A DNA stretch of 64,000 nucleotides from Amoebophrya sp. A120 (GCA_905178155.1 CAJINV010000012.1:305271-369270); one strand, 5' to 3'. Shown: positions 12,741 to 50,200, numbered from the stretch's first letter. The notes: a model not told the origin generated them from the sequence alone. Translations and numbers: made by a program.

Positions 12741-15700
12741 TCATTTCCTCGCCATCAACTCTTGCATGAAGCTCTCGTATGCAGTGTCTTCCTCATCACC
12801 GCTGGTGCTTACTTCACAGCTCTCACCGTCTTCATCATCGTTGTCCCCATCCCTGTTTGGAGGTTCCGTTTTGCCAATTCCATTCACGAAAACTGTACCA
12901 GAGGACGCACTTTGTTTTATAATTCCACCGTGTACTTTATTCCGTTTGGTCGTGTTCCTTCTCCTGTTATTCTTATTTCCCGAACAAGCATGTTGCTCTG
13001 AGGAGGAAGAAAATGAAAAGGCTCTCGAGGGTCTGTCAACTTCATCAGGTCCAGCGAAGTTCTGGTCCAGCGGATTCCGCGAGGAAGAAGAAGCGCAGCC
13101 TGGTCTAGAACTGCAGTTAAAAAACAAATCCACGGCGACAACCTTGTTGTTCTTCTTGCCGTGTGACAGGCCCCCACGGGGATCTGCTTTTCTTTCTCCT
13201 CGACTGCTGGATGGTGGTCCTGGTCGTGCACCACCTCCGCGGCCGGGAGGTGTGATACAATCTGGACCTGACCTTGTCCTTGCAGATGAGCTTGATGCGC
13301 CGCTACGACCCGCCAAACGATGCTTTGTGTTCTCGAAAGCAATCATATCTGCCTCCTCGACGAGCCTCTCCGCAGGGGCGCAGAAAGCAATATGGCGTTC
13401 TCAAACGTTACATTATCAACTGTTACATGAATTTGTAATGCAAGAGTGGCAAAAGTACAGGAGGAAGATTGCGCCTTTTGCATTACAGATTTGGGACGGA
13501 TTATAGTGCTATGTAGCGCGTCGAGAAGTTGTCATGCAAGGCAGGCTTGGTCGTGTGATTGTGAATAGTGATAGTGTTTTTGCATGACAAATCATGTAAC
13601 AGTTGAGAGTGTAACGTTTGAGAGCCCCATAAGCAAGCAGCAGCGGAAACAGGAATGAGAAGGAGACACTGGCGGCGGTGGAGGAACCAGGGTGTTGAGA
13701 AGTGCAGCTCTTTTCGTTCGGAGTTACAGCTTGTGGCCCATCATCTGAGTCGGCGTTTGTTAATATTTCTCGATCTCCATTTATTTTATTCCCAACGACG
13801 CCGCCGGAACTCCCTATTCTGTTGACGCACAGCATAACCGTGAAAAAAACGGCTTTGAATGCTGGTGGCAAAAACCGAAAGCACGCCGCCTGCGAAAAGG
13901 TGAGTTCCTGCCGGTCTTCGGGCGTGGGGTAGAGGTGGGTGAAAAGGTGATGCAGATCGTCGTCCGTGTGAGTCAAATATGGAATGAAAAACGTAGTACA
14001 ACACTGCATAGAAATTTCATTTGTGATCAGAATCGTTCATGCGGCTTCGCGACAGAAGGCAACGCTTTGCTTTTCATGCACTTTTTGTTTCATGATCATG
14101 CGCGACTTCGCTGATTAGTACTTTTTGAGACTTATTTTCCACACCATATCAACACCTGTGCTGCGATACGCGGCGGCCAGCGGATGCACAACTTCTGGTG
14201 CAGACAGTCGTTCACGCTGTCCTTCTGAGCAGGGCTGGCTTTGTCCCAAGAAGGAGAGGATGTGTTGCTTTTCGAGTTATCATAAGCCACCACCTCGTCC
14301 ATGTCCTCGTTATTTGCTGGAAAACCTGTGTTCTGCAGAGGTGCGGAGCATTGCAAATGCACGGATGTCTGCCTTTCGCGCTCAAGGAGGGAGACCGGTC
14401 GTGCAAAATCTACTGCATCTCCAGCGTCATGGTCAAGTACAGGTGCACGGCAAGCCGGGTCACCAAGTTGACTTTCCTCGTTCTTGTTTCCAACGAGTTT
14501 TATCAGTTGGCCCTTCCACGTCCCAAATTCGGCTGTTGCTCGATAGCTGAAGCTCAATTCCACGATTTTCGGCCGGTGCGCTCCTGTACTGTTATTTCGG
14601 CGGTCCTCCTCTGACCCGACGTCAAGTTTCGCTCCTGCTGGACGACCTCCTGCTAGAGAACCAGCCTGCTGTCCCGCGGCGGGCGTGGGGGCCGCGACCA
14701 AGATTAGCAGAAAATCCGCCGGCGTTTCGTCTGGTTTGGTGCTGTTACTGTTGGACGTCGAGGCAACTAGGCCCTTTCCGTTCAGAGACCAGCTAGTAGA
14801 GATGGTGCTGTAGTGGCGAGATGAGGATGGCGTCGGTAATGATGAATTTGATAAAAACTTGGAATCTTTATCATCGCTTCGCGCGCCAAGAACACCAACG
14901 TCAACCTCTGCCGGAGCGTGCAGCTGCTGTTGGGCAGTCGTGTGTAGGTGTTCCTCCGCGTCCTGTCCTTCACGCCTTTGCTTTTCGTCGGACGGCCCCG
15001 CCCCCCTTGGTGGGGAAAGCGCGTTACTTCTGGCCCGGTATTTCAGGTGTTGGACCTCGTCACAAACCAGCGGCCGGCTCACAGTCAAATCCACGCCCCC
15101 GCTCGCGTACTCAACCACCGTTTCGTGCGGGGTGTGCAACACAAATTTACGTTCTTCGCCGCACAAGATCATAGAGCTGCAAATTTCATTCGCACGGAAA
15201 AAAAGAACGACGCTTCAGATTCTCAACCGCAGGTGAAAGGACCTACCTAGTGATGCAGAAGCTCAAGCACAAACTATGTAAATTTCCGTATCGCGAGTTG
15301 AGGGCCCGCAGTTTCAAATCGTATGATCATGTTTTCTACTTGCACGGCGAAGTTTGAAGTTCAACCCCGGGGCATACTTTTGGCAGAAGATAGACAGCGG
15401 GTTCTCTACCGGCCCCAGCGGAAACTCGCGAATCAGCTGTGGGATAGAGGTTACTGTTGTTGAATTTCCAAAACGCGGACCTGCTTCGTCGCCTTCTGAG
15501 CGTGGTGGAAATTTGCCACCAGAATGGTCGTCGTCGGGAAAAGGACCTATCCCGGCCTGCTCATCACACGGTCTTGGTTGTCCCGAGTCGTTCGGCGATT
15601 GTGTCCTAGAAGCCATCTCCAGTTCTTGTGCGGCGGGCGCGGTTGATGTTCTTGCGCTGCGAGAGGAAGAGCTCGCTTCTATTCTCATTCGGTTGTCCCT

Positions 15701-16908
15701 GTGAGAGGTTTGAGGCTGTTTGCGTTGCTGCTCTGATGTGGGTATGTGGCACTGTTGTGAAGAAAATATTTCGTCTTTGTTCCGAGAACCGTCAGAGCCG
15801 CCTCTAGTACAGCTTCCGGCCCCCGCGCCAGCCCTCCCACCACCAGCAGGAAGCTTGCAATAGATCCACTCGAGCGGATTGCGATCCAAATTGTTTTCAG
15901 ACTCGGAATCCGATGGCGAGGTCTGGAAGCAAACCATATCAACTGCAAAAGTGTCTGGGTCTGGAAGTATCAGTATGCAACTTGTCATGCTAAATCTGAA
16001 GCATGCAAAAATCTGTGTTGCATGATTACCAAAAGTCGTCCAGTTTTGCCCAAGTCGGGAGGCAGTTTCTCATGCAGGATATGCGTGAGAATTGAGAGAG
16101 ATCGCACAGGAGATGAATTTGTCCTGCTAGGTCCTGCATTCCAGACCTCATGGGTCATGGAAAATTTGCATGACAAACTCCCCCAATCTTCTTCCAGACC
16201 CAGACATTTTTGCATTTGATAACCCAAACCCGGATGCAAGTTTGAGTTTGTCGTCGTAGTGGTTCCATCTACAACTTCCTGTCCTCGCGGGGGACGAGTA
16301 CCAGATGCAGCTCCTGGCTGCACAAACGAAGTGGCACCTCCTGCGCCGTCGGCACAGCTATCTCCGAAGCTCAAGTAGAGGAAAAAAATCTTTACCTCGT
16401 CGTGCTGTCGCTGATTCATGCGTATCATCCGGTGGTTAATCTTTGTTGCGCTGCTGTTGGTTCGTGGACCATTTGTTCCGGGGTAATTTTGATCGTGCTG
16501 GCGTGAGGATGAGGAAGAGGACGCTTCCTGTATCGGTCCGCTCCCCTGTTGATGTTGATCAACATCCGGAGTACTTCTAGCTCGCACGTTGTCATAGTCG
16601 TACCGGAGCTGATCAGGATGCTTGTACTTTGCGGGGATGACCCATTTTAAATCCAGTTTTTCCAGCAAATGCGGGAATCGGATCAAATACCTTTCTCCAA
16701 CCTTGTCGCCACGGACGGTCGTCGCCTGGAAGGGAAAGGATCTCCTTGGGTCTGCGCCGGATTCAAATTCTGGTCCACTAGCGGTTGTAGCTACGTTTGG
16801 TTGTGTTATAACTGTATCGTTCTTTCCGCCTTCGAAAAAATAGGTTCTTCTCGGCCCTTGTGTTCCAGTGCTGGTGGTAGGGCGCCGACCGAAATCTTGG
16901 GCCACCAT
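12741..16908 (-). CDS. Hypothetical multi-exon protein, Ser/Gln-rich
   Basis: Chain of long minus-strand ORFs (15985-16908, 15314-15988, 14132-15172, 13509-14009, 12741-13346). Two junctions become in frame after removing TIR elements 15937-16221 and 13391-13631. Ends are uncertain. Confidence 0.5.
13391..13631. mobile_element. Introner, F family (TATGGCGTTCTCAAACGTTAC)
   Basis: Clear TIR pair, perfect flanks AGCAA, frame restored. Confidence 0.85.
15937..16221. mobile_element. Introner, A family (TAT..GCAAAA.TGTCTGGGTCTGGAA)
   Basis: ~30-bp TIR pair, flanks AACCA/ACCCA, frame restored. Confidence 0.85.
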
Positions 16909-25917: not shown

Positions 25918-28900
25918 TCACTTCTTTTTTTTCGCCCCGGTCGTGGTCTTGCCCTTGCTGCTTCCGACATTCGCAGTTATGCAAGAAAAAAACTGTGTAA
26001 GTGTAACTCTGTAACGCAGAACATGCATCAGAGTTACACCTGTCATGCAAGACAACCATGAAGCTCTCTTTTCACGTGTGTCTTCCCTTACAAGCCGCGC
26101 GTGACAGGCTTTCTCTGTCATGTAGAGCAAATTTGTGGTGCTGTCAACCAAAGAAAGTTACACTAACACAGTTTTTTTCTTGGATAGCAGTGGCAGCAGA
26201 AGTACTAGCACCAGCGCCGCCTGTCGTGGTTTTTGCTTTTGTAATATCTGGCTTAGATTTGCTTTTCGGAGAGGATGGTGCGTCTAATTCGTGGTCCACA
26301 AATGTAACCGATCTGGCTTTCGTCGTCGTCTCGTTTTTCTTTTTCCCATCCAACACATTACTGGTCGATGAGGAGGAGTTCTTCGCTGCTACTGGTCCTG
26401 CTCCTTGTGGCTCCTTGTTCCCCTTGTCTTTCGCTTGTTTGTTCCCAGCTGCCCCCGCTGCCGTGCTGCTGGCTGCCGCCGAGCTAGAAGAAGAGGAGGA
26501 AGTCTTTTTCCCTGCTTTGTTGTCGTCCACCACCTTCCCGGCTTTCGCCTTGCTACTGCTACTGGCAGCAAGAGGACCTCCTTTAGCAGCTTGTTTCTCT
26601 TTGTCATTTTTCCCGACATCGCCTTCCTTTTCGCCTCCAGCTCGGGACTTCATTTTCGACGTCTCAGCTTTGATGTTCTTTTCCTTTTTTTCCTGTTCCT
26701 CCAACTGGTGTTATGCGTTTGCAAAAGGCAGGAGTTTGCAGTCACTGTACACAAATCCAAGAAAAAATGCAGCACTATTTTTACTGATCAGAATTTGAGC
26801 ATCAGCATCTATTGTTTTTGTGCTTCTTCTGTAAGCACACGACGAGGTCGAGGAGCGGTGGAAATGATATAATTACTTTTTTACAGTAGACTTGCAAACT
26901 TTCATATTTTCATTATCATTTTCATAACTGTTGCCGCATCTGTTCGGCCGCCTGCAGCATGTCGAAGTGCATCTGCCTCCCTATCTTCTTCTCCTCCGCC
27001 TTTTTTCTGCCTTGGTGTCCCTTCCCGTGAAATATCCAAAGAAAAAAACCGATCCCCATTATCCAATTTGTCATGCAAAACACGTATGAAGTCATGTGCT
27101 TGCCATGCCGAAAATGGATGCGGATGGGTTTTTTTCTGTGGATATGAAACGTGAGTCCGAGCAGCTCGCGGGCCTTGGAATGGGCTTCTGGACTGATCAT
27201 CTCTTCCTCTTTGATGTTCAGCTTTCCGTTTTCATCTCCAAATTCCTCGACGAGGGACTTCCGGAACGTTTTCAGGTCCTTGTCTCCCCTCGGCGTCAGC
27301 TTTCCCTTTTGCCGGGGCGTGAGCTGTCTACTCCCCGTGCCGGAGAGGCTGGATCGGGGCGTGTAGTCCTTTTCGATGGCGTTGGCACCAAACGCCTTCT
27401 CGAAGATATCCCGCTTCTCGTGCTTGTAAAAGTCCTCGTCGTGTTCGCCGACCGACTTGATCACGAGACCTTTTCCGCTGATGTAGGTGTCGTACGTAGT
27501 TGGGTCCTCAGGGTTGATTTTCAGCTCACCGTCTTTCTTCCGCAGTTGCTTGATTTTCGGTGGTTCTTTTTCGGTAATACCATCGTCGTGGATCTCAAAC
27601 ATCGGCCGGTCAGGGAGGGGTTTGCCCTTCTTGCCGTAGTATGCACTGCAAACTTTTTGCCACAAAACACGAGCACGACGCGGTCTTATCATGCACTAGC
27701 ATTACGGATGGAGATGATTTTTTCGATATCAACGACAATACGAAAAAAAGAAAAATATGAAGTTGTTTGAGAATCAATATACAAAATGACTTTAAAAACT
27801 TATGTCATGCGATGTTATCCATATTGTTTCAACATCATGCGTACTAGGAGCAGGGCAAAATGTTTGCTGTGAATAGGATTTGCGACGTGTGACTCTTCTC
27901 TTTTTTGTTCAACAGATCTACGCCACTGGCACTCGCGCTGGATTCCTGAAAGGGAAAACAGGTAAAGCTGATGTAATTCATCTGGTGGGGTTCTTCTCTT
28001 CTAGTTGCTTGTACTCCTACTCCTCCTCGGGAGCAGCTCAAACTCAAAGTACCATATGAGACAAAACAAGAATATTACCATTCCCCCGGCCGCCTTACTG
28101 CTTTTGTTTCCCTTTGTTTTCGATTTGGACTTGCTTTTTTCCATTCCGGCCTGTTTTCGGAGCTCCTTCTCTGTTTCTGGGTTCAGTTCCGGCGGAAACA
28201 TGCTGGGAAACTTGTCAGCCACGTCCTCATATCAAATGTAAAAATGTCTGGGTCTGGAAAGTTGGAACTTGTGATGCTAGCTTTGGACCCAAAAAAAAAT
28301 GGTATTGCATGACCAGCAAGAGGAACCACATTTGTGCTACGCGAGGAGGGCATTTGTCATGCGGAAATGGCATCAGGAAGCTTTCCAAAAATCTGTGATG
28401 CTGGGTCATGCATTACAAGCAGCATCGGTCATGCCAGACAAGCATGACAAGCCTTCCACTCTTCCAGACCCAGACATTTTTACACATGATACCTCATTTT
28501 CGTCGTCGACGTGCTCGTAGCCCTCCAGAGCTATCAAATGTAAAAATGTCTGGGTCTGGAAGGTTGCAACTTGTAATGCTAATTCTGGATCGTGCAAAAA
28601 TCTGTGTTGCATGAATGCCAAAAGCTGTCCACTTTTGACCAAGTTAGTAGTAGTAGTACCATTTAACTCCTGGCGGGTGGGCGTTAGAACAGATTTAGCC
28701 TCTGCCAATGCCTGGGCGTCAGAACCAAGTTGAGAGGAAGTTTCTCATGCAGGATAGACATGATACGGATCTCACAGAATCTGTCATGCTAGGTCTCGCA
28801 TTCCAGACCTCACGGCTCATGCAAAACGTGCATGACAAGTCTCAGAATTTTCCAGACCCAGACATTTTTACACTTGATAAGAGCTTATGCGTTGCAAGAG

Positions 28901-31900
28901 TACTTGTACCGACCAATATGAAGATTCCGGTGGTACAAATTCAAATTGCAGGACAAATGTTGATGAAGATCTTCCCGCATTTTTTTATTTCCATTCGGAG
29001 TTTTCAGATAAGAACGCGACAGCAAAACCAGCGGCCCACTAGCATGCAATCTGATACACTGGTGTTGTACTTGTAGTGATGGTAAGTAAGTACTTTTGCA
29101 CAGGATAGAGCTTCGAATTCTTCGGCCTCTTTGCCCTTTTTCTTCTTTCCCTGTAATATTCATCGTAGAGTTTGGGGTAGTAGATGTAAAAGCTGTGCTG
29201 TCTCAAGATTTTCAGAGTGTGGTGCAAAAGCATCTATTTTGAAATCTTCATCTTCCGATCTCGACCTAGAATTTCATCGATCCATTCAGGACGACTTGCA
29301 GATATTAAATCTGTCACGCGCACCACCATTATTCTTATACAACAGTACCTTCGTCTTATCCTCCTTGATGCTCTCGAAAATCAGTGCCTGCAGCTCTTGC
29401 GCGGTGAGCGCGCTATGGATTGCAAAAGTGTCTGGGTCTGGAAGAGTGCAGGAGTTTGTCATGCAGATTTCGCATGACCCATGAGGTCTGTGATGCATGC
29501 CCTAGCATCAGAGATTTTGCGAGGGCTTTCTGATGCTCATAACGCATGAGAAATGCCCTCTCCGCGTAGCACAAATTACACCTCTTTTGCTTTTCATGCA
29601 ATACAGTTTTTATGTAGATTCCAAAAGTAGCATCACAAGTTGTATCCTTCCAGACCCAGAGGACATTTTCACATTTGATATGCGCGGCCCAGCAACAGCT
29701 GCTTCCTCTTCTTCATCCAAAACAATTTCATGGCTGCACTGTCGCTATGCATTGCAAAAGATCGAAAACCCTCGTGCTACTGTACTGCTAGTAGTAAGTT
29801 TTGCATGACAAAGACAATTTTTTTCAGAAAGAAACGAGCCGGGAAGTAGATCCTTAATTTATCATGCTAAACAGAAACGCTACTTAATTTGTTATGCAAA
29901 ACTGGGATACAAGCAAAGATCATAACACTTTGCAACGCATAGTCGTGCTCCTGGTACATTTCCTCATCTTCCGCTCGTTTCTGTATCGCAAGAAAAAGTT
30001 GCTACAGTTACATACACATTGTGCTGCAGGAGCCGCAAGACAGACAACCTTTGTCATGCAGGAAATGCTTTTGCGAGCCTCGCTTCCTACGTATTTTCGC
30101 TTATCATCATTGCATTACAAGTTTTCTCTGCCACACAGAGAAAATTTGTGATGCAGAAACTTCAACAAATGTGTAACTGTATACACTTTTTTCTTGTGAT
30201 ATTCTGTGCCCCGGGACTAACTCCCTCGTCGTCCTCTTCCATTTTCTTTCGCTTTTTCGGGGCGGGAGCTGCAGCACTGCTCATGTCGTCGTAGTCGGAC
30301 TCGTCAAGGCCCTTGATTGGCTGGCCAAAGAGTTTCCGCTCGTCCTTGTTGATGTTTCTAGACACGTGGTTTCGCAGGTCAATCCGGATAGCCCCTTCAT
30401 TCCCCGGCACCGGTGAGCCACCCAGGGAGATTTTTCCCTGCTTTCTCCGCCGCTCATTCACCTCCGCCTTGGAAGTTTGGTCTTTCCGCCTCGGAAAAAT
30501 GATGTCGTTCTCCTCCCACTCCCGCTTGGTTGGTCGTTTTCGCCGCGTTGGGGCGCCGTCTTTGTTCGCAGCGTCTTCCATTGCCTCCTATCCTTTGTAA
30601 AAATGTCCCCACACCATAGTTGTCATGCAAATCTGCATGCTTAAAATGTTTCTCATGCGGAGCCCCATGAGAAGCATTTTCTAATGGTGTTTTGAAATTT
30701 GTCATGCTCCAATCAGCATGAGAGACTAGATCTATAATGCTGCTGAACTAGCTCAAACAGCACTACACTACGCGTCCAAATTTGTCATGCGAAACAGCCA
30801 AAGCTTGTGGATTTGTCTAGCCGATTCCCCATCCCGACTCTGGTGTGGGGATGTTTTTACTCAGGATACCTCCTCCGTAATAACCACGTTGTTTTTCCCG
30901 AGGTACCCGTGTCCGGCCTTGGGGGAGTGCAGCTGGTAAAACACGTACTGTCTGGCTTCGTCATCCTGTGCAAAAGTACTATCGCACTCGTAGTTGTAAT
31001 CGCAGTCATGCATTACAAATCTCCACCCCAAGGCAAAACAGAATGACAAATTCCATTTGTCATGCTGTTGAGCCAATTTGTAATGCGATTACTACTAGTA
31101 CGATAATTTTGCAATGCATATTCGTCTCGCAGCAGCCACGCGTTGGGATCTCGGAACTCGCCGGACGGGCCAAAGTCAGATGTTTATGAAATGCACAAGC
31201 ATCGTACTTGTAGAAATCGCATTACAAATTCTCTCAGCATGACAAATCAATGAAATTTCATATGCTGATTTACCTTGGAAAAGAGATTTGTCATGCATAG
31301 ATGCGATTGGTTTCGGTAGTACGAGTACGATACTTTTGCACAGGATAATGCTGAGCTGATGTTGAAATTCGAAAGGCCGACCAGTTCGTGGTCTAAAAGC
31401 CGCGCGGGGTACTGGCGACCCAAGACGCAGCCGAACTCTTCCTGCTGTTCTGGCTTCATTTTCCAGGGTTCGAAAATGTAATCCGCGGGCAGGTTGCGCA
31501 ATTCTGGGAGGTAGTACCTGATAATGATGATATTCTCGTAGCTGTACGTAAGATTTTACAATAAAATTTCACCTAATGTTCCCAGTAAACACCAAACCGA
31601 GTTGTGTTCCATCTATGTTTATGTCCAGCTCCTAGACGACAGCGAGGCCCTCGGGTCGAGATTCGTCGTGCATGGGGAAAAATCAAGAAGCGAAAAATTC
31701 AAATTCGCACCAGCACTACATGGTGATGAAGTGGTGTTACAACTACGTAAGCTATACCTGATGTAGTCGCCATTCGGGTCGATATCCTTGGAGTAGTCTG
31801 TATCAAGTGCAAAAGTGTCTGACCCTGGAAACTTGCGATGCTGGGTGGCGTATCATGAGGAGGCCACAAGTTCTGGCTCAGCATGACAAGTGTCTGAGCT

Positions 31901-34900
31901 TCTAGGTGTTGCCTGTTCTGCATGACAAAGCACGTTTCTGCATGACAAAAAAATGGGGCTCTTGGGTAATGTGCATGACAAATTCAAGAGTCATGTGAGA
32001 CAAGCATGACAAACTTGCATTCTTCCAGACCCAGACATTTTTGCAGTTCATAGTCTGCGGGATTGTACACGTTCATGAAATTTTCTTCGAAGCTATCACA
32101 GGAAAAAGTGTTAACGGAATTTGTGATGCAGGAATGCATCAGAAAAGGTATCCAAATTTGTATTGCGTAGCATGCATGGAAGGCAAAATTTGTAATGCAT
32201 GACTGCCATCTGTGGAAACCGTTAACGTTAACACTTTTTTGTTTGATAGAAGCAGCTGCAGGAGTATGGCACAGTGGACAACTACTAACTTGAGACTGTT
32301 ATTCCCCGTCCTCTGCTGATTTGAAGCATTGCATCATCAAGGACCGCATGCTATTAGCGCCACAAACCACCATGTGAAGAAAAAAAGTGCAGCAGTTCCA
32401 GGACGAATCTAGTTCCACGCCCAGAGTTGGAGTTCTGAGGTCTTAGCTTCCACCAGAACTCGTCATGCAAACACAGCCGAAGGGCCCGGATAGAGTTTTT
32501 CGGAGAAATTCTGCATCGCAAATGAGCAGGGTAAGAGCCGCGAGTAGTAAGTTGTCGACTATCATACAGACCCGGTGATCCACCCCGCTGTATTCAACGC
32601 CCAGTCGTTGTCAATTGCGTACTTCGGATATCCCAAGAAAAAAAACCCATCTCCATCCATTTTTTGCATGACGAACACTGGATTTGATGAATGTTTTGCA
32701 TGACAAATTGGCGGTGGAAATGGATCTACTTTCTGTCTGGATATCGCAAACACGTCTCGGCCTCGCTCCCAGGATTCGTACATATCTCCATACGTCAGGA
32801 AGCAGCACACCACCCGCCGAAACTCAGCCGGTAGCCACCTGGAGGTACGTATTTTTATATCGTTTGATGTTGCTCATGCTCATGCTCTTGCTTCTGTGAA
32901 GATTGATCTCTACTCGAAGTAGCGGCCCATCACCATCAGGGTCTCGTTCAGAAAAGTTTTTCATTTTTACATTAGAAAATAAAACGTTTCACTACCCTTC
33001 ACTCCGGAGTTGCGCCATACAGGCGTCGATGAAAGGGTAGCCGGTCCGGCCCATTTCCCACTGTCGCACGATGTTCGCCGAATTGCCCCAGTTGATTTGT
33101 CGCACGAGTTTGTTTTTCCACGTTCCCCCAAAGTTCGCTATACTAAACCCGAGCGCGTAGCAATAGTCTCGGTGTCTCAGGTTTTGCAGCAACTGGTTTT
33201 GATCGAGGAAGAACTCCTGCTTTTTGGTAATCTTCTTTTTCGGCTCGTTGGCGTAGAAAATTTTGCGCTCTTATCCTGAGGAAAAGCGTCCCCATCCCAT
33301 AGTCAAGTTGGTAAATCTGCAGCACAAATCTCGAAGTTTTGGGAGTTATGCATGAAAAGTGTGGTCTCGTAGTGTAATCCTGTTTAGCTAGAATGGCAGC
33401 ATCACAGATCTAGCATATCATGCTGCTTGGAGCAGGACAAATTCCGAGTCGATACTAGAAAATGCCTCTCATGGGGCTCCGCATGAGAAATATTTTTACC
33501 ATGCAGATTTGCATCACAACTCTGGGGTGGGGACGTTTTTACACAGGATAGTTCTTTCACCTTGTTCTCCGCATCCGCTCGATTGAAGTCCGTGAAGAGC
33601 ATATCGCACGAAAAAACTGTTTCACTGTAAACTTGTGATGCATAGAATGGAGCAAAAAACGATTTGTCTTGCTACACCTGCAAGACATTGGATTTTTAGG
33701 CGTGTTCTGCCTTTGGAAGCGCGCATGGCAAATTTTCTGTGTCATGTGTAACAAACTTGTGATGCAGATCTTGCAAAGCCATCACAGTGAAACAGTTTTT
33801 TCGTGGGATAGAGCAGCTTGAGCTCCTGCTCGCTGTTTTTCAGCATGCAGTGCGCGTAGTATCCTGAGTAAAAACGTCCCCACCCCAGAGATGTCATGCA
33901 AATGTGCAATGACAGGAACATTGGTAATGCGCATCTCCACGAGATGCATTTCCAATCGTGTTTTTGCATTTTTCATGCTGTAAGCAGGATGATAAGGTGG
34001 GTTTGTCATGCGACTTCCCTTGCCAACCAGCACTACACTGCAGATGGAAACTTGTCATGCACAACTTCCAAAGCTTGGGGATTTGTGTTGCAGATTTACG
34101 AACTTGACTATAGGGTGGGTACGTTTTTGCTCAGGATACGTAGCACTCGAGCATCATCTTTTTCACTTCGAAGTACACCGTTTTTGCGGACAAATTTCCC
34201 ATAGCGAGGTAGGGGGAAAGCCCGGTAGTCGGCGGATAGAAGTGCCACTGCGCGTCGCTGTATTAAATAAACATTTGTAGGAACACCATCAATAGCGGAA
34301 CGAATCAATAGAACTGAAGATGGCTGATACTAGCATCGCAATCAGATAGTAAAGATTTGCATCACAAAATTTCCACCTACCGAAAAATTTGTACTAATAC
34401 AAGGTCGTGCTACGATGAAGTAAGAACCCGCTCCTTCCAGTTGTAAGTATTTTTTGTAAGTGCAATGCAGCGCAGCACAAAGTAAGTAGACCAAACTTCT
34501 CTTACCGCACAATCGGCGCCGTCCTGTCCATGTCGTACCTGAGTGCGATGCCTGGATCGTTTTTCGTGATTTGCTCCAGTCGTTGCAACGCGTGCTTCTC
34601 TCCCAGTTTGTCGTGGAAGTAACCGAAGTACTTCACGATTCGTATCCTGAGCAAAAACGTCCCCACGCCATAGTTGTAATGCTAATCCGCATGCTGAGAA
34701 TGTTTCTCATGCGCAGCCCCATGAGAAGCATTTTCTAGTCGGGTTTCGGAATGCAATGCGTCATGCTCCAACAAGCATGATGAGTTAGAGTTGTGATACT
34801 GCTGGAGCAGCTAAACAGCATTACACTACGAAGCTCAACTTGTCATGCGCAACAGCCAAGGCTGGCTGATTTGTGTAGCAGGTTTCCCATCTTGACTCTG

Positions 34901-37900
34901 GGGTGGGGACGTTTTTACACAGGATAATCCGGCCAGTCGCTTTATCGTGGTCGGAAATCAAAGTTTTGTCTTTGTGAAGGTTCATCTCGATCAGATCTGG
35001 GATGTGGGTGGTGCACATTATGCAATACAAATTTCTTTTCCCGTAGTACATGTACACAATGCATGACATCAAATAAATTTCGCTACAACATGTCATGCTG
35101 ACTAAGATTAAACGGTAAGTTTTGTCATGCACAAATAGCATTTATTGTACGTGTACTACGGGACTAAATGTACTGTGGATACACATGTGGAAAAATACGT
35201 TGTGCTCCGGGACTACATTGAAGGGGTTCGCAAGTCGATCGTCTTGTTCGTCATAGTCGTACTGCGTGCAGATTTTTGGCGGCATCCGTACGGATTTCTC
35301 GATGTGCAACGCGTACATAAATTCCTTCTTGCACTTCTCGTCGAATTTCAACACCCGCGCGGCTTTCGCGTTCGGGGTCTTCTCGGCGACTTTTCGCCTT
35401 TCCTGCTCCAAATGCCGCTCGAAATGGTTGTAATCGTCGACAAATCTCACTTATGAATGGCAAAAGTATAATCTTGATCTTCTTATCGCGCTGTTAGCAT
35501 AACAATCATTTTCAAGAACAAAAGTGCAATTTGTAATGCTGTTTTCATATTCCCTGCTTAGCCAATTATCGATCTGTCATGCATGACTGCGATAACAAAT
35601 CTTTATTAACACGACGAGTAAGATATTAACTTTTGCAGTGCATAGAACAGGGTCTTCGGGATGCTGCCCGAGTTTCTTCCTCACAACTTTCGCGTAGTCT
35701 TCTACCGTTTCCGCAATCTGAGAGAAGTTTGTGTTTGTTTTGACGAAAGCATAAGGATCTCGCTCATAACGGAAGATGTCATGGTTCGGAGGACCACTAC
35801 ACACAAAGTCATCTTTCCAGTTTTCCATGCGGTAGTCAAAGAAAAGATGAGCAACAAAATCTTTACACGCAGTAACTACTTGTTAGTACTAGAGTACCCT
35901 CATCTGTGGGATTTTGTCCTTGACAATGGAATTCTGTTTTCCCAAAACCCCAGCAGCCCCTTTCTTGATCCCACGGCCGCTCACGATTGGCTCGGGTATG
36001 TCGAGCAGTTGTTGTGGTGGCCTTGAGCTGCTGGAGGCAGACGGTTGTTGATTCTGATTCATCATGTTTGCACTACTTCCTCCCGCACCGGCACCGCTTC
36101 CGATGACATTATTATCATTTTTACTCGCGGATGCGGACGAAGCTGCACTTTGACTCGTCTTCCCCGCACCCTGCCTGCCCCCGGTCTGTGCGAGGAGTTG
36201 ACTTTGTTGTGCGGCTTCGTTTTCTTTCTCGTCATTATCATCAAACTTCTCCTCGTAGAAGAAATCCCGCACGTCGTACAGCATTTGACTCGCATAGCTG
36301 ACCATCCGGATCCCTCGCCGTTCTGCCAACTCCGTGACCGATTCGTCGCGGACCATATCAACTGCAAACATGTCTCGGTCTGGATATTTGTGACGCAAGG
36401 AAGGGAATATTATTGAGTGCACTACAATGCGCTTCCCAGCACGACAAGTTTTTCCGTGGTTCAGAGTTGCGTACTCCGCATGAGAAACTGCGTTTTTACA
36501 TGACAGACAAGCGGATCTCTTCGCAGGCACGCAATACAGAGTTTAGAGTCAGGCTAGACTAGCATGACAAATCTCGCAATCTCCCAGACCCAGGCATATT
36601 TGCAGTTCATAGACCAGGCCGTACGGCTCGAGGTCCTGCTCGAAAAACACGGTGTCCACGTTGTATGAGAGTGCACAACTACCTCTCCCTTTCATTTGTC
36701 ATGCAAAGTCCCAAATCCAGGCTGTACCTCTTGGCACTGTTTGCATTACAATTTCTGGTAGCCCAAATAGCTCTAGCTCTACACTCCAATGCAAATCTGT
36801 CATGCAGAACTGGCATTGCTGCTGATGCTTGTATTGCCTCCATGCTATACAAATGAGGGGGAGGGGAAGTTGTGCACTGTCATACGTTGAACTCGTCGAA
36901 CAGAAAGGTAAACACGGGAACTTCCCGCTGTTGCGTGATGTACAGTTCTATCACAAGAAAACGTGTTAACATTAACGGTTTTCATAGATTGCAAATATGC
37001 ATGACAAATTTTGCCGAGCATGCATGCTATGCATGACAAATTTGGGCGCGTTTTGTGATGCGTTACTGCATCACAAATTCCGTTAACACTAACACTTTTT
37101 CCCGTGATAAGTTCCTGCCCGTGCTCCCGCAAGTTCGTCTGCACCTCCCGCAAGCTCGCGAGCAGCAGGTTCCACCACTGGTTGCCCGGGCAATTTTGGT
37201 CCGGCACCCGCTGGTTGTTCACGATGCCCGTGCCCTGCAGCTGCTGCCGCTGCTGCTTCATGGTTTTTGGGATCATGTACGGCGTCATCGTGTACAGACA
37301 CAGCAGCGGGATGTCGTTCTCCCGTGGGTCTTTCTGCTTCCGCGGCCGGCCCCGCGGGTTTTTTTTCACGATGTTTCCATCTTCGTCGACAGTATTCCCG
37401 TTTTCGTCGGTAGTGGTGTTCTTCTGTAGTTTCGCAGAGGAGGCTCGAACAGCAGCATTAGCGTTTTTATTGTTGTTCTTATCGAGAAACTCCGCTTCTA
37501 AGTGCTGGTCTTCCTCGTCACTAGATGTAGAGTCATCTCCTTTCGGTGGTTTTGGATTCGCGGTGGTGCAGGCCTTCATTGCGGCTTTCAAAGCCGGGTT
37601 GTCGTGATACACCCGCAGATTCCGCCGGAACCAGCAAATGTTGATCTTCAGCCGGTCGTCCTCTTCTGCAGCTTCACCGACCTTGTTATGCATTGCAAAT
37701 GTATTGGCACGTACAGGCACACGTAGCAGTAGCGGCATGAGAAACAAGTTTTGCAGAAACAAAAACGGAACTTGTCATGCTGATGGAGTTTAGAGGAAAA
37801 CAACTCTGTCATGCATGATAGCGACTAACACGTGTAGTACAATAGAAAATTTGCAATTTGCATATTTCACAGCCGGTTTCCTTCGCTTCATTTTTCGCTT

Positions 37901-38770
37901 TGGCTTCGGTTTCGCCTTCGCAGAAGCGCCGGAGGGCTCTTTATTCAGCAGCACCGGCTTCTTGGGTTTTACTTTCACTGGCTCCCCATCCTCACCGAGG
38001 ATGACCTCGTCGTCGACATCGTAGAAATCGAAATCTTTATGGCGTTTTCAAACCTTATACTCACAACTGTAGCATGGATTTGTTGTAATGCGAGAACAGC
38101 AACAGTGAAAGGGGAACACTTGCAAATCGCGCATTACAAACTTTGAACAGATTTAGATGCTGTTTCGTCCTTCAAGAATTTGTCATGCGAATAATCTTGA
38201 TCGTCTGGCGGCTTATGATATGTTTGCATGACAAATCATGGTTCAACACCAGTTTAGAATGTAACATTTGAGAATCTCATAATCCTCGTCGTTTAATTGC
38301 AGCCCGAGGTTCTCCACTAGCGGTTCTTCCTCTACTGCGTTATTTTCTTCGACGTTATTTTCGACGTTCTGGTTTATTGATGTTGTTCCCCCTTCGTTTT
38401 TTTTGTTCATTTTCCGCATTTTCGCCTTCGGTTGCGGCGCGAAGTCCGGTTCGAGTTCGTCTTGTAGTTCTTGGGGGTTTTCATCAGCATTTTCAGGATT
38501 TTCCTCGTCCTCGTAGTCGTCCCCGAGATCGAGGTCCAGATCGAAATCCGGAATCTATCAAACAAAAAAGTGTTAGCGTTAACATTCACCTTAACCCTAT
38601 TAATGGTAGAGATGCATGACAAATTTTCGCTATGATGCGTCCTATGCAATACAAATTCGGGCTGAGGCACCATTTCTCATGCATGACAGCATGCCAAATT
38701 CTGTAGACGTTAACACTTTTTGCTTTTCCTGTGATAGAATTTTCGCCTTCTTCATCTTTTTCGGCGGCAT
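25918..38770 (-). CDS. (6-4) photolyase / animal-type cryptochrome-like flavoprotein, ~1730 aa, 36 exons, with acidic N-terminal and ~720-aa Lys-rich C-terminal extensions
   Basis: Removing 29 TIR elements (+5 nt each) and 6 GT-AG introns (35718-35897, 34258-34505, 32839-32995, 31518-31757, 29151-29348, 27946-28078) leaves 5193 nt in one open frame, from MPPKKMKKAK to GAKKKK*. Family motifs: [134 protein letters not shown]. Confidence 0.9.
25978..26186. mobile_element. Introner, J family
   Basis: TIR TAT.CAAGAAAAAAACTGTGT.AGTGTAAC; perfect flanks GCAGT; absent from the duplicate at ~22295. Confidence 0.9.
26712..26926. mobile_element. Introner (degenerate TIR)
   Basis: Shared inverted AGTTTGCA.GTC.ACTGTA; transcript flanks ACAGT/ACACC; frame restored. 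Confidence 0.65.
27033..27144. mobile_element. Introner, short I family (frame-preserving)
   Basis: TIR TATCCA.AGAAAAAAACC.ATCC; perfect flanks TGAAA. Confidence 0.85.
27640..27875. mobile_element. Introner with almost fully decayed direct repeat
   Basis: TIR TATGCACTGCAAACTTTTTGCC / TATTCACAGCAAACATTTTGCC; flanks AATCC/CTACG (1/5 match); +5 removal restores frame. Confidence 0.75.
28230..28491. mobile_element. Introner, A family
   Basis: 30-bp near-perfect TIR; perfect flanks CCTCA. Confidence 0.9.
28532..28879. mobile_element. Introner, A family, carrying a nested insertion
   Basis: 30-bp TIR; perfect flanks AGAGC; contains 28646-28723. Confidence 0.9.
28646..28723 (-). mobile_element. 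78-bp insertion with 8-bp target duplication and (TAC)n tail; possible truncated non-LTR/SINE fragment
   Basis: ACCAAGTT at 28638-28645 and 28724-28731; absent from related A elements (compare ~16045-16075). Confidence 0.6.
28886..29107. mobile_element. Introner, C-like family
   Basis: TATGCGTTGCAAGAGTACTT / TATCCTGTGCAAAAGTACTT; perfect flanks GAGCT. Confidence 0.85.
29414..29680. mobile_element. Introner, A family, inverted relative to 28230-28491
   Basis: TIR pair; flanks CGCGC/TGCGC; internal sequence is the reverse complement of 28230-28491. Confidence 0.9.
29746..29941. mobile_element. Introner
   Basis: TATGCATTGCAAAAG / TATGCGTTGCAAAG; flanks GTCGC/GTCGT. Confidence 0.8.
29984..30201. 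mobile_element. Introner, J-like family
   Basis: TATC.CAAGAAAAA...TACAGTTACA TIR; perfect flanks TTCTG. Confidence 0.85.
30589..30868. mobile_element. Introner, D family (TATCCTG.GTAAAAACGTCCCCAC.CCA.AGT)
   Basis: TIR pair; perfect flanks CCTCC. Confidence 0.9.
30962..31120. mobile_element. Introner, C family
   Basis: Perfect flanks TTCGT; one end reads CAT instead of TAT. Confidence 0.85.
31185..31347. mobile_element. Introner, C family (TAT....TGCAAAAGTATCGTACT.GTA)
   Basis: TIR pair; flanks ATGTT/ATGCT. Confidence 0.85.
31801..32052. mobile_element. Introner, A family
   Basis: Perfect flanks GTCTG; joins YNPAD to YSKDIDPNG. Confidence 0.9.
32094..32248. mobile_element. Introner, E family (TATCA.A..AAAAAGTGTTAACG)
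   Basis: TIR pair; perfect flanks GAAGC. Confidence 0.9.
32265..32566. mobile_element. Introner (degenerate TIR)
   Basis: TATGGCACAGTGGACAACTACT / TATGATAGTCGACAACTTACT; transcript flanks GTCTG/CTCCT; restores WITGSCSCF spacing. Confidence 0.7.
32629..32743. mobile_element. Introner, short I family (frame-preserving)
   Basis: Flanks TCGGA/TCGCA; interrupts conserved RDVFA|KYAIDND. Confidence 0.88.
33272..33550. mobile_element. Introner, D family, inverted relative to the other D copies
   Basis: Flanks GCTCT/GTTCT; internal TCTCATGGGGCTCCGCATGAGAAA is the reverse complement of the core in 30589-30868. Confidence 0.9.
33602..33810. mobile_element. Introner, H family (TATC.CACGAAAAAACTGTTTCACTGT)
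   Basis: 27-bp near-perfect TIR; perfect flanks GAGCA. Confidence 0.9.
33860..34138. mobile_element. Introner, D family
   Basis: TIR pair; perfect flanks CGTAG. Confidence 0.9.
34643..34926. mobile_element. Introner, D family
   Basis: TIR pair; flanks ATTCG/ATCCG; colinear with 30589-30868. Confidence 0.9.
35019..35181. mobile_element. Introner, G family (CCCGTAGTACA.GTACA core)
   Basis: Perfect flanks CACAT. Confidence 0.85.
35452..35644. mobile_element. Introner (decayed direct repeat)
   Basis: TATGAATGGCAAAAGT / TATGCACTGCAAAAGT; transcript flanks TGTTC/AGTGA; frame restored. Confidence 0.75.
36356..36611. mobile_element. Introner, A family
   Basis: Perfect flanks GACCA; joins EPYGLV to RDESV. 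Confidence 0.9.
36664..36884. mobile_element. Introner, B family (TATGA.AGTGCACAACT.CCCCTCCCCCTCAT)
   Basis: Perfect flanks CGTTG; colinear with 52880-53095. Confidence 0.9.
36949..37109. mobile_element. Introner, E family
   Basis: Perfect flanks AGTTC. Confidence 0.9.
37687..37864. mobile_element. Introner (decayed direct repeat)
   Basis: TATGCATTGCAAAT / TATGCAAATTGCAAAT; transcript flanks TGAAA/ACAAG; frame restored. Confidence 0.75.
38038..38281. mobile_element. Introner, F family
   Basis: TIR related to 13391 and 49674 copies; flanks ATCTT/ATCCT. Confidence 0.85.
38556..38736. mobile_element. Introner, E family
   Basis: TIR pair; flanks GAATC/GAATT. Confidence 0.85.
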
Positions 38771-47229: not shown

Positions 47230-50200
47230 TTACGTATTCCAAACTCCCCTCATCGCCCGAATCGCGGTCAAAACTAGCTCCAACCTCTGCTTTTCCAAAG
47301 GCACCACTTCTTTATCTACCCACCAATCTTGGTACGCCAAACTACTCGGAAATATCCGCACAAACTCCACCGCGCAAGTTTGGAACAATTCATGCGCCGT
47401 TTGAACCGTATCCACTTCGTCCGCCTCCTGTCGCATTAAAAACATCTGTTCGTAGGAGTAGCGAAACAGCGTTAAAACCACATCCGACCGCTTCGGCGCT
47501 AGGTGCGCGAAGCGGTAGAGCCGGAGATGGTGTGGGCGGTTGGAATTTTCCACTCGGCGGGAATAGAACGCGTTTCCCGCTTGGAAACGGGCGCTGTAAG
47601 AAATTTCGTCGCCAGGGATGGTGATAGCGAGTTTAATATTTCTCCTCGTGGTGGTGGTGGTGGTGGTTTTCGTTTTCCCCAGCTGCAGTGGGGCAAGGTC
47701 TACTTGATGTGCAGCTTCTGCTTCGTCGTGCTTCAACAGAAAGTTTTCCGCGATCAATTCTGCTTTCTCCTTCTCCTGACGATTCAGCTTGGAAAAAACG
47801 GTGGCAAGCGGGAACGGCGGAGGACTCGCGACTTCTTCGCGGGTCAACACGTAAGTTCTTTCTGCGGGAGATGTTCTTGGCCTTCCTCTTATAGGTTCTG
47901 CTTGCTTTGTTAGAATCTTGTTCCTGTTCATCTCGACTTCCACAAAAGAATCCGCATTCCCGATGTTCTCCAGCACCCTCGCAAGGAATTTCAGGGTGAA
48001 TTCCCTATCCTCCCTCAGTTTCCGATGTAGCCGTAGAAACGGCATCTGCTCCTGCGCGAAATCTGAGCTCGTAAACTGCCGCACGGAGCCGTGCTGGTAG
48101 GAAAATTTGAAGTACTTATCTAATTTTACTTCGTGCGGGACGAATTTTTCCCGTTTCGTGTTGTGGAAAACCAAAAACATCGTCGGGTGGCGGGATAAAA
48201 GGTGCTCGAAGAAGATCTCGATTTCGCGTCCCGTGTCGTGGTGGAAATCTGTTTCTGCGTATAGAAGTTCTTGTTGTTGTAAGGGGTTTTTTTGTATTTG
48301 GATTTGTAGTTGCTGTTGCTGTTCATTATAACCAGAAACAAATGAAGGTGACCCGGCGTCTTCCTCGAGTTGCTGTATCAATTCCAACTCCCCAACATCG
48401 ACCTCCGCCACCGCGGAAAGGGAGTTTGTCTTGCGCATCGGCTTCAAACTCGGCGAGCAGCACGGCGTCACCGGGGCGGACGCGGAACCGTTGCTCATGC
48501 TGGCGCCCGCCAGAGTTGTACTTGAAGGGGAAGATGAAGTTGTGCTGCCCGAAGAGATCTGCCTCGCAAATATGTCTGGGTCTGGAAGGATCTAACTTGT
48601 CATGCTGCATTTGCATACGACAAAAATCTGTATTGCATGAACAGCAAAAGAGGCCCTGTTTTTGCCACGGCAAGAGGGCACTTCTCATGCGGTATAGGCA
48701 TCAGGAAGCCCACCTCGCAAAATCGGTGATGCTAGGGCATGCATCACAGACGTCAGGAGTCATGCAAAATGAGCATGACAAACCTTGCATCACCTTCCAG
48801 ACCCAGACATTTTTCCATTTGATAAGAGAAGACCGTGCTGCTCCTCCTCAACAACCTTGTCGTTCGCGCCCGCTCGTAGGCAGTCGGCTGCCTGTTCCGC
48901 TTCTTGCTGCCCGTATGAACTGCAAAAGTATCGTATTCGTATGAATGCATTACAAATTTCCCTATATTGCGGATTTGCCTTGGAAACAAGATTTGTGATG
49001 CAAGACTTGCATTTGTACGAGTACGATACTTTTGCACAGGATAGCCCGGCTGTGGTGCTGAAATGACGCTAGTATGTGTATGTGCAGGGTATTCATCCTC
49101 GTCCACCATTTCTGGCATGTCCGGGGAAAAGATGTCCCGGAAAAGTTGTATGTCCTCTTTATCCACTGCGCTGGTAACAGGGTCCTCGAAGATGTGATTG
49201 TCAACGGCAGATGAGCCGGATGCTCTAGTACTGCCTAGAGGACCTCCTGCAGAAAAGGATAAGGAGCCGGCGTTTGATATTGATGTTCTGGAGCTAGTCC
49301 TAGTAGTAGTAGCACCTCCTCCGGTGCCGCCGGCCGAAAAGGATGAACCACCTTGCTGTAGTCCTCGTCCATCATTGATAGTATCCCATGGTGGTCCTCC
49401 ACCGCCCTGCACGCTCGTCCCCCCAGCCGCCTTGATTTTGTTCCCGCAGAGCACGGAAACGTATTCTTCTGCTTCCGTACCATCCAGATACACTCCCTCG
49501 TTTTTGTTTCTCGCCAACCCATCTGCGACTGCAAGGAGGAGCTGTGCGCCGAAGGAGATGGTGGGAAGTAGTTGATGTTGGGGAGTGCTGGTGCTTTGTC
49601 GTGGTTCTGGTTCTCTCTCCGATGCTCCACGTCTTCCGACGTAGCCCGACACCGGTGTTCTGAACTTGTTCAATATGGGGTTCTCAAGCGTTACATTCTC
49701 AGCTGTTGCATGAATTTGTCATGCAAAAACACCTTCACCATCCTCACGATCAAGCTGCTCCGCATGACAAATTTGCGAAGGGCTAAGCCGCGCCTAAATC
49801 TGCGCCGAACTTGTAACGCAAAAGGCGCAATCTTCCTCCTTCCACTTTTGCCAGTCTTGCATTACAAATTCATGTAACATTTGAGAACTCCATATTCAAA
49901 ACCAGATATTTCGGCACCTGCCGGAAGAAGGCCCAGGGACCGAGATCTGCGCGCGACCGAAGTTGGTCGTACTGCGCCGGATGTAGTGTCGTTCTCTGCG
50001 CTTTTTCGTGATAAAGCATTTCCTCCGCGAGAAAGACTGCGAGGGAGCCGGTCGCTTGTTCCAGTCTGTTTATTATCCCTCCGCGAGCTGTTCTAGAAGT
50101 TGAAAATAGCTTCTGGGCCCCCGTCTTTCCACCTTGATATCCTATTTGCTTCGCACCATTCGCGGCTACAAGAACAGTCGGGGTTTGTATCGCTTTCAGC

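What the first reader, a model, noticed from the sequence alone, without database searches (positions are those of the whole stretch)
25978..38736. Shared subterminal motif TTTGTCATGC/GCATGACAAA across unrelated TIR families
Seen: TTTGT(C/A/G)ATGC or its complement occurs, often several times, in nearly every element, typically 30-60 nt inside a TIR (e.g. 27067, 29454, 30697, 30781, 31287, 36694, 38179, 52976-53013). I did not find it in the long exons or introner-free stretches (40.3-48.5 kb, 55.7-60.9 kb). Families differ only after the common TAT-N(5-7)-AAA end. Inference: one trans-acting factor (transposase DNA-binding domain or splicing factor) serves all families. The family-specific ~20-30-nt arm could ensure correct end pairing among closely spaced introns.
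Basis: partly seen in the sequence, partly recalled or inferred. Interest (0 to 1): 0.78.

Follow-up and report, generated by a model that had tools for sequence, protein, structure and literature searches.

The report
Helix-phased DNA motif in transposon introns
Dozens of otherwise dissimilar transposon-made introns, likely of the plankton parasite Amoebophrya, carry the same 10-letter motif, conserved and spaced in step with the DNA helix but missing from some introns that are still spliced, so it likely marks where the still-unknown enzyme that spreads these introns grips DNA.

Summary
TTTGT[C/A/G]ATGC occurs 54 times in 42 TAT...ATA elements (9.0 kb) against 8 times in the other 55 kb. The elements match the published introners of Amoebophrya sp. 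A120. All 29 in this photolyase-family gene are absent from spliced contigs, and the cut falls 1 nt before and 4 nt after the element.

The motif is conserved beyond ancestry: 84% against 66% identity, in 10 of 10 families, with one free position. Same-strand copies sit 30-33 bp apart with a 10.5-bp period. It shows no strand bias on the transcript, and two spliced, decayed elements lack strong copies. This favours a double-stranded-DNA site for the mobiliser (likely a hAT-like transposase, as with subterminal repeats) over a splicing factor. No protein was identified here.

The idea that family-specific arms prevent mis-pairing is not supported: adjacent same-arm elements are not avoided and splice separately. 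I found no published account of the motif. This scan has already noted both the motif and the -1/+4 cut on other DNA of the same genome.

The parts
25920..38770 (-). Host gene, photolyase/cryptochrome family, 1,730 aa after removing 29 introners and 6 GT-AG introns
   Evidence: Open frame; spliced model matches contig coordinates at 8 of 8 (X3) and 12 of 12 (X7) checkpoints; Pfam PF00875 and PF03441
25978..26186 (.). Introner, family 7, TSD 5/5; PWM sites 3+/2-
   Evidence: joint 25972-26187
26712..26926 (.). Decayed introner, TSD 3/5, no motif site; spliced; fixes the -1/+4 cut exactly
   Evidence: joint 26707-26928 with 0 ambiguous letters
27033..27144 (.). Introner, family 6, TSD 5/5; exact motif at 27067
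27640..27875 (.). Decayed introner, TSD 1/5, only weak sites (under 10 bits); spliced
   Evidence: joint 27635-27877
28230..28491 (.). Introner, family 1, TSD 5/5; sites 4+/3-; same arm as its neighbour 28532
28532..28879 (.). Introner with the family-1/2 arm and its own interior, TSD 5/5; sites 4+/2-
28886..29107 (.). Introner, singleton, TSD 5/5; one site; removed together with 28532 (580 nt), leaving a 1-nt exon under the -1/+4 rule
   Evidence: joint 28526-29107
29414..29680 (.). Introner, family 1, TSD 4/5; sites 4+/4-; exact motif at 29455
29746..29941 (.). Introner, singleton, TSD 4/5; sites 2+/1-
29984..30201 (.). Introner, family 10, TSD 5/5; sites 2+/2-
30589..30868 (.). Introner, family 4, TSD 5/5; sites 5+/1-; exact at 30698 and 30781
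30962..31120 (.). Introner, family 0 (left end CAT), TSD 5/5; sites 2+/2-
31185..31347 (.). Introner, family 0, TSD 4/5; sites 1+/2-; exact at 31287; adjacent to same-family 30962
31801..32052 (.). Introner, family 2, TSD 5/5; sites 1+/5-
   Evidence: removal shown by length arithmetic
32094..32248 (.). Introner, family 8, TSD 5/5; sites 3+/1-
32265..32566 (.). Decayed introner found from the spliced joint, TSD 2/5, one strong site; fixes the -1/+4 cut exactly
   Evidence: table 5c (7 exon letters between 32093 and 32568)
32629..32743 (.). Introner, family 6, TSD 4/5; two minus sites 32 bp apart
33272..33550 (.). Introner, family 4 in reverse orientation, TSD 4/5; sites 0+/6-
33602..33810 (.). 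Introner, family 7, TSD 5/5; sites 3+/1-
33860..34138 (.). Introner, family 4, TSD 5/5; sites 6+/0- at spacings 31, 48, 33, 49, 31
34643..34926 (.). Introner, family 4, TSD 4/5; sites 3+/0-
35019..35181 (.). Introner, singleton, TSD 5/5; sites 2+/0-
35452..35644 (.). Introner, TSD 2/5; sites 2+/0-
36356..36611 (.). Introner, family 2, TSD 5/5; sites 1+/4-
36664..36884 (.). Introner, family 5, TSD 5/5; sites 2+/1-; exact at 36695
36949..37109 (.). Introner, family 8, TSD 5/5; sites 1+/3-
37687..37864 (.). Introner, TSD 2/5; sites 2+/1-
38038..38281 (.). Introner, family 3, TSD 4/5; sites 2+/2-; exact at 38179
38556..38736 (.). Introner, family 8, TSD 4/5; sites 1+/4-
6131..16221 (.). Six further elements (6131-6303, 6646-6827, 7422-7536, 13391-13631, 13978-14148, 15937-16221), each with at least one PWM site; 13978 is a weak candidate
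   Evidence: no RNA laid here
48558..53419 (.). Six further elements (48558-48824, 48914-49043, 49674-49894, 52635-52778, 52880-53095, 53167-53419), all with the motif
   Evidence: no RNA laid here
60829..61096 (.). Element with the family-1/2 arm; two PWM sites, no exact copy
384..1490 (.). Six exact motif copies (384, 418, 676, 863, 906, 1481) outside recognisable TIR elements; three lie in what read as GT-AG introns
   Evidence: introns predicted from the frame only

Best explanation
The motif (consensus ATTTGT[C/G/A]ATGC) is a conserved, helix-phased subterminal repeat of these transposon-derived introns and is likely the double-stranded-DNA binding site of the one protein, probably a hAT-like cut-and-paste transposase, that would mobilise all the families. 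Shown: non-autonomous elements of 112-348 nt with TAT...ATA ends and 5-bp target duplications; several motif copies per element in either orientation, starting at least 27 nt from an end; same-strand copies whole helical turns apart (mostly three); removal from the RNA of element plus 5 nt, cut 1 nt before and 4 nt after the element, with or without the motif. Inferred: a multimeric mobiliser binds several phased sites on one face of the helix, loads on the ends and cuts at the TAT termini. Selection for mobility keeps the motif while interiors diverge, and it decays once a copy is fixed. Splicing uses a separate signal, the terminal UAU[G/C]...[G/C]AUA hairpin, likely read by a relaxed spliceosome: the -1 cut makes every intron start N-U-A-U-[G/C], the register of GU-AU-G.
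For: Enrichment about 41-fold, with 0 strong sites in 6,175 nt of exon. Replicated in 35 of 36 elements from loci L001-L006 (58 exact copies in 11,040 masked nt vs 2 in 17,349). Leave-reference-out identity 0.84 at motif columns vs 0.66 at other interior columns, higher in 10 of 10 families; position 6 is free (0.56), positions 8-10 are 0.95-0.96. Same-strand pairs 30-33 bp apart: 65 vs 11.5 expected (max 22 of 1,000), in 14 families vs 6.4. With one member per family: 18.8 vs 2.5; mean cosine at 10.5 bp 0.44 vs -0.02 +/- 0.10, and still 0.15 vs -0.14 +/- 0.10 after multiples of 31.5 are removed. The best period in a scan of 8-14 is 10.5 with phase near 0. Flanks of the 30-33-bp pairs are no more alike than other pairs (0.295 vs 0.28), so these are not tandem-duplication relics. 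No strand bias: 84+ vs 72-. Family-4 copies 33860 (6+/0-) and 33272 (0+/6-) lie in one transcript and both are removed. 26712 (no site) and 27640 (weak sites only) are spliced. Elements with decayed TSDs hold 5.4 strong sites per kb vs 15.4 (6 vs 36 elements; Poisson p 0.0008). Precedent: the Hermes BED domain binds scattered subterminal repeats, and most hATs have such repeats (PMC10368747, passages); hAT5 makes 5-bp TSDs (PMC12730594, passage).
Against: No transposase is in the window: none among 23 ORFs scanned with Pfam, and no giant element with matching ends. Farhat et al. report no transposase in A120 and rule out general transposase-mediated mobilisation (section 16). Six exact copies sit outside TIR elements at 384-1481, two of them 43 bp apart in a GT-AG-looking intron with no family homology, and six verified GT-AG introns hold 2 strong sites in 1,156 nt; pure decay does not predict perfect copies there. 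Distance from the element end is not significantly phased (Rayleigh p 0.065 and 0.23). Motif bases are more often paired in predicted RNA folds (70% vs 57%; 32% motif with motif). The old-versus-young contrast rests on 6 elements and uses TSD decay as a proxy for age. The binder could be a host protein. The hAT label comes from unreviewed scan notes that I could not test.
Confidence: 0.62

Rival explanations
1. A host DNA-binding protein (chromatin organiser, or an AP2-type or other transcription factor) binds the phased motif; the elements keep it because it helps them be tolerated, transcribed through or accessed by the mobiliser.
For: All DNA-level evidence (phasing, no strand bias, conservation) fits a host protein equally well. 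Perfect copies occur in non-TIR intronic DNA at 384-1481. No A120 transposase was reported. The reverse strand resembles half of TGCATGCA, an apicomplexan ApiAP2 site (recalled; one search gave a search listing only).
Against: The motif is absent from the window's long intergenic and GC-rich stretches (0 exact copies from 1.5 to 6.1 kb, from 16.3 to 22 kb, and in 40.3-48.5 kb) and thins out in elements with decayed TSDs, which stay in the same genes.
Confidence: 0.17
2. The motif is an RNA signal bound by a splicing factor that marks these introns for non-GT-AG removal.
For: Almost every verified intron of this kind carries it (27 of 29 with a strong site). One strand contains GCAUG, a known splicing-regulator core (Rbfox; recalled). 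A few GT-AG introns also carry it.
Against: No transcript-strand bias. Single-orientation elements of opposite sense are both spliced in one mRNA, so the factor would have to read a word and its complement. Elements 26712 and 27640 are spliced without a strong site. 45% of sites break GCAUG at position 6. A 10.5-bp period is a property of B-DNA.
Confidence: 0.09
3. The motif needs no protein: it is a relic of common ancestry or is kept because opposed copies stabilise the RNA hairpin.
For: Motif bases pair more often in predicted folds (70% vs 57%). Many elements carry opposed copies. All families share ends and TSD length and so probably an ancestor.
Against: Conservation exceeds that of neighbouring interior columns in 10 of 10 families and spares position 6. 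Family-4 copies with all sites on one strand cannot pair motif with motif. Opposed outer sites of family 0 often mismatch at position 6 (alignment, read by eye). Fixed 31-32-bp spacing without flank similarity is not explained.
Confidence: 0.09

Closest known systems
Introner elements (IEs) of Amoebophrya sp. A120 (Farhat et al. 2021, PMC7789003; seen: abstract, passages of sections 10, 11 and 32, sections 12 and 16 whole, supplement part 3 of 5 and a term search of the supplement)
   Same: Non-GT-AG introns with inverted repeats starting TAT, about seven loose bases, then at least three A; 3-5-nt direct repeats; many families; no coding capacity. All nine predominant A120 splice classes in Table S4 begin N-T, as the -1 cut predicts.
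   Different: In what I read, the paper describes no shared internal motif, spacing or excess conservation. It calls splice positions variable relative to the hairpin and rules out general transposase mobilisation. Its figures (e.g. S25) are not held, so a logo there could show more.
hAT subterminal repeats: Hermes STRs bound by BED domains, also Ac and Tol2 (PMC10368747, passages); hAT5 with 5-bp TSDs (PMC12730594, passage)
   Same: Short repeats scattered inside the TIRs in both orientations, arranged differently at the two ends; a multimeric transposase needs them; a 5-bp TSD exists within hAT.
   Different: The Hermes site is 4 bp plus an AT-rich flank and its TSD is 8 bp. Here the site is 10-11 bp with a strong three-turn spacing, it is shared by families whose arms and interiors do not align, and the elements are spliced out of mRNA. 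No transposase was tested here.
IS3EU/GingerRoot and IS481EU DNA transposons (PMC10045372, passages)
   Same: TA..TA or TNT..AYA termini. Gozashti et al. 2025 (PMC12130899, passages) describe an A120 introner family with TIRs and integrase-like ORFs.
   Different: TSDs are 6 bp (IS3EU) or about 4, 15 or 25 bp (IS481EU), not 5; no subterminal repeat appears in the passages read.

Membership tests
Amoebophrya A120-type introner elements | Inverted repeats beginning TAT, about 7 loose bases, then at least three A | tested here: met
   End profile of 84 ends: T.99 A.99 T.99 [C/G].97, A at positions 11-14 0.79-0.90
Amoebophrya A120-type introner elements | 3-5-nt direct repeat at the exon-intron boundary | tested here: met
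   5-bp repeat: 5/5 in 23 and 4/5 in 13 of 42 elements
Amoebophrya A120-type introner elements | Removed from transcripts without GT-AG ends | tested here: met
   Joints in X3 and X7 (15 of 34 rows shown) and exact length match for all 29. Both runs are contigs of one study, guessed to be RNA; run X1 has contigs that run unspliced across such elements
Amoebophrya A120-type introner elements | Repeated in families across the genome | tested here: met
   11 families of 2-11 members among 78 elements, about 68-88% identical where the alignment spans most of the element
Amoebophrya A120-type introner elements | Window comes from strain A120 itself | not testable with these tools
   No genome held; inferred from the published end signature; scan notes say the same (unchecked)
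hAT (hAT5-like) non-autonomous transposon | TSD of 8 bp, or 5 bp in hAT5 | tested here: met
   5-bp TSD; hAT5 definition from PMC12730594
hAT (hAT5-like) non-autonomous transposon | Short subterminal repeats inside the TIRs | tested here: met
hAT (hAT5-like) non-autonomous transposon | Cognate autonomous element with a hAT DDE transposase and a BED domain that binds the repeats | not testable with these tools
   No transposase among 23 window ORFs; no genome to search; candidates exist only in unreviewed notes
IS3EU/GingerRoot | TA..TA termini | tested here: met
   definition
IS3EU/GingerRoot | 6-bp TSD | tested here: not met
   Duplication and net removal are 5 nt in 12 of 12 single-element joints examined
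RNA splicing cis-element | Fixed strand on the transcript and needed for splicing | tested here: not met
   84+ vs 72-; single-orientation elements of both senses and motif-less elements are spliced

The most novel reading that the evidence does not exclude
One divergent transposase (or one transposase-plus-host-factor complex) mobilises all the TAT...ATA introner families of this genome by reading a shared three-turn lattice of 10-bp sites rather than family-specific TIRs. This frees arms and interiors to diverge into the roughly 2,000 published families, while a separate terminal UAU hairpin code lets a spliceosome without U1 snRNA cut them out at -1/+4. The elements would carry two independent codes, one for DNA and one for RNA.
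Probability: 0.4. Interest if true: 0.8.

Novelty: new variant of a known kind. Interest (0 to 1): 0.5.

Why it matters
How tens of thousands of Amoebophrya introners spread is an open question: the genome paper found no transposase in A120 and no common family signal. A conserved, helix-phased site shared by families that do not align gives a defined bait for pull-down and a filter for autonomous elements. It also separates the mobility signal from the splicing signal, which can then be tested one at a time. Subterminal repeats are a known transposon feature, and this scan has noted the motif several times on other DNA, so the gain is a testable handle rather than a new kind of system.

Tried and rejected
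No whole genome was held, and the records behind L001-L005 are not held, so there is no genome-wide count.

No RNA holder was on record. The first lay at 90% likeness was swamped by other copies; the second at 99% gave the joints.

Viral contigs had 0 matches to one arm pattern.

Transposase search in the window: Pfam on 23 ORFs found none; the Atlas gave no usable hit for 55765-56760; pairing orphan ends gave no convincing giant element.

Tandem-duplication origin of the spacing: rejected, flanks 0.295 vs 0.28. Phasing from the element end: not significant. End positions 4-13 as a motif copy: resemblance only, 12 of 156 ends reach 8 bits. Avoidance of T at position 6 (4 of 316 sites) as avoidance of cryptic TAT[G/C] ends: inconclusive, TATG 89 vs 132 expected but TATC 86 vs 88. 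Concerted evolution of an element's own two arms: not seen; own left-right score exceeds cross score in only 4 of 10 families, all small. Avoidance of same-family neighbours: rejected.

Rows dropped before counts: three L006 elements that duplicate L002 in reverse, nested inner TIR pairs, and low-scoring or overlapping TAT...ATA pairs.

Literature: searches found no paper describing the motif. Roy et al. 2023 and Henriet et al. 2019 were not read, nor the datasets of PMC12130899 or the figures of PMC7789003; these may bear on novelty.

Full report
WHAT THE REGION IS. The stretch 25978-38736 lies in one minus-strand gene. A scan for TAT...ATA inverted ends gave 39 candidate pairs against 0-3 in three shuffles. 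A relaxed scan, reading by eye and the spliced joints brought the curated set to 42 elements (9,025 nt) in the window, 29 of them in this gene. They are 112-348 nt long and flanked by a 5-bp direct repeat, perfect in 23 and 4/5 in 13. The end profile TAT[C/G]...AAA is the signature that Farhat et al. 2021 give for introner elements of Amoebophrya sp. A120 (PMC7789003, passage). No genome is held, so the organism is an inference.

THE ELEMENTS ARE INTRONS. Contigs of runs X3 and X7 (one study, guessed to be RNA) skip the elements (15 of 34 joints shown), while contigs of X1 run through them unspliced. Removing each element plus 5 nt and six GT-AG introns gives an open frame of 1,730 aa with photolyase and FAD-binding domains. 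This model matches the contig coordinates without offset at 8 of 8 points in X3 and with one constant offset at 12 of 12 points in X7. Of 12 single-element joints examined, the only cut that fits all is 1 nt before and 4 nt after the element on the transcript; two joints (26707, 32260) fix it exactly. Under that rule the 42 introns start CT 13, TT 11, AT 10, GT 8 and end at random. All nine predominant A120 classes in the paper's Table S4 also start N-T.

THE OBSERVATION. There are 62 exact copies, 30 plus and 32 minus: 54 in elements, 8 outside, about 41-fold enriched. 30 of 42 elements have an exact copy and 38 of 42 a strong PWM site. 37 of 54 copies lie 30-60 nt from the nearer end and none closer than 27. 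In the gene, 6,175 nt of exon hold 0 strong sites, 1,156 nt of GT-AG intron 2, and 6,359 nt of introner 89. Six loci from another assembly, found with one arm pattern, gave 36 more elements after duplicates and nested pairs were dropped; 35 carry a strong site. The PWM is ATTTGT[C/G/A]ATGC, 14.7 bits, with most information in TGT and ATGC and a loose position 6 that is almost never T.

MORE THAN ANCESTRY. The 78 elements fall into 11 families and 19 singletons. Families align to each other only through shared arms or short stretches. Sites were defined on one member and identity measured among the others: motif columns are 84% identical against 66% for other interior columns, higher in 10 of 10 families with three or more members. 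Position 6 (56%) is no better than background while positions 8-10 reach 95-96%. Alignments may anchor on the motif, which could inflate the gap somewhat.

DNA, NOT RNA. Same-strand copies lie 30-33 bp apart 65 times against 11.5 expected, in 14 families against 6.4. With one member per family the count is 18.8 against 2.5, and the 10.5-bp cosine is 0.44 against -0.02 +/- 0.10; an excess remains when multiples of 31.5 are removed. A period scan peaks at 10.5. The flanks of such pairs are not alike, so they are not old tandem copies. There is no strand bias (84 vs 72). Two family-4 copies with all six sites on opposite strands are both removed from the same mRNA. Element 26712 has no site and 27640 only weak ones, yet both are spliced. 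Six elements with decayed TSDs hold a third of the strong-site density of the other 36 (p 0.0008), while 26712 and 32265, found from the joints rather than by an end search, still have exact TAT[G/C] ends in register.

AGAINST. Six perfect copies lie outside TIR elements at 384-1481, three in what read as GT-AG introns with no family homology; two of those introns begin GTATGA and may be old introners. Phasing from the element end is not significant. Motif bases pair more often in predicted folds. No transposase was found in the window, and the genome paper reports none in A120.

THE ARM HYPOTHESIS. Same-arm neighbours number 3 against 1.5 expected, or 2 against 1.0 with strict families. 28230 and 28532 have near-identical arms (the left arm of one matches the right arm of the other at 25 of 26), yet the 35-nt exon between them is kept, as is the 59-nt exon between 30962 and 31185. 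Contigs drop rare isoforms, so some skipping is not excluded. Pairing of the nearest ends as the RNA is made would suffice (inference).

MECHANISM. Shown: anatomy, TSD, splicing register, enrichment, conservation, phasing, and dispensability of the motif for splicing in at least two elements. Inferred: a multimeric DNA-binding mobiliser reads the phased sites (0.62); rivals are a host DNA-binding protein (0.17), an RNA splicing factor (0.09) and ancestry or hairpin stability (0.09). The nearest precedent is the hAT subterminal repeat bound by BED domains of the Hermes octamer (PMC10368747, passages), and hAT5 makes 5-bp TSDs (PMC12730594, passage). IS3EU shares the TA..TA ends but has 6-bp TSDs (PMC10045372, passages). 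Unreviewed scan notes report long elements with the same ends and a hAT-like transposase elsewhere in this genome. I could not test them; they moved my guess at the enzyme from integrase-like toward hAT-like, and I do not file the elements as hAT.

NOVELTY. The elements are known. The motif, its conservation and its phasing did not appear in my searches, in the parts of PMC7789003 that I read, or in term searches of PMC12130899, PMC9860276 and PMC11282704 (passages). Figures, datasets and two Current Biology papers were not seen. This scan has already noted the motif and the -1/+4 cut on other DNA; those notes are not independent support. Verdict: real, a new variant of a known kind, interest 0.5.

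Noticed in passing
window 28880-28885: Two introners inserted one base apart with overlapping 5-bp duplications; the contigs skip 580 nt, which leaves a 1-nt exon (28881) under the -1/+4 rule, or the two are removed as one unit.
   Followed up: partly
window 384-1490: Cluster of six perfect motif copies without TIRs, in the 3' region and GT-AG-looking introns of a coiled-coil gene; pairs are 34 and 43 bp apart. Unexplained.
   Followed up: partly
window 22240-22482 vs 25920-26394: Partial duplicate of the photolyase gene's 3' end (79% over 172 nt); by eye it lacks the introner at 25978, like an empty site.
   Followed up: partly
window 30962, 48558, 7422: Elements whose left triplet is CAT, TCT or TAC instead of TAT. 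All genes here read on the minus strand, so each change falls at the intron's 3' end; 30962 is still spliced.
   Followed up: partly
window 4.2-5.0, 8.7-9.5, 11.0-11.7, 17.7-20.7, 23.0-24.7, 44.5-46.2 kb: GC-rich islands (0.66-0.74) between genes, free of introners and of the exact motif; several at 17.7-24.7 kb are preceded by similar AT-richer blocks (and by eye).
   Followed up: no
window 52500-54840: Cyclophilin gene (PF00160) with three introners and a long intron holding repeated AAAATTTT-rich units.
   Followed up: no
window 55762-58422 and 61457-63373: Long minus-strand frames broken by a few in-frame stops; no Pfam or Atlas match except DUF285 at 61457-62770.
   Followed up: partly
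window 10410-10650: Short imperfect repeats of a GGAAAATTTC-like unit, first on one strand and then the other, in intergenic DNA.
   Followed up: no
L003:3557-3611: Two opposed exact motif copies 45 bp apart outside the masked elements, possibly an unrecognised element.
   Followed up: no
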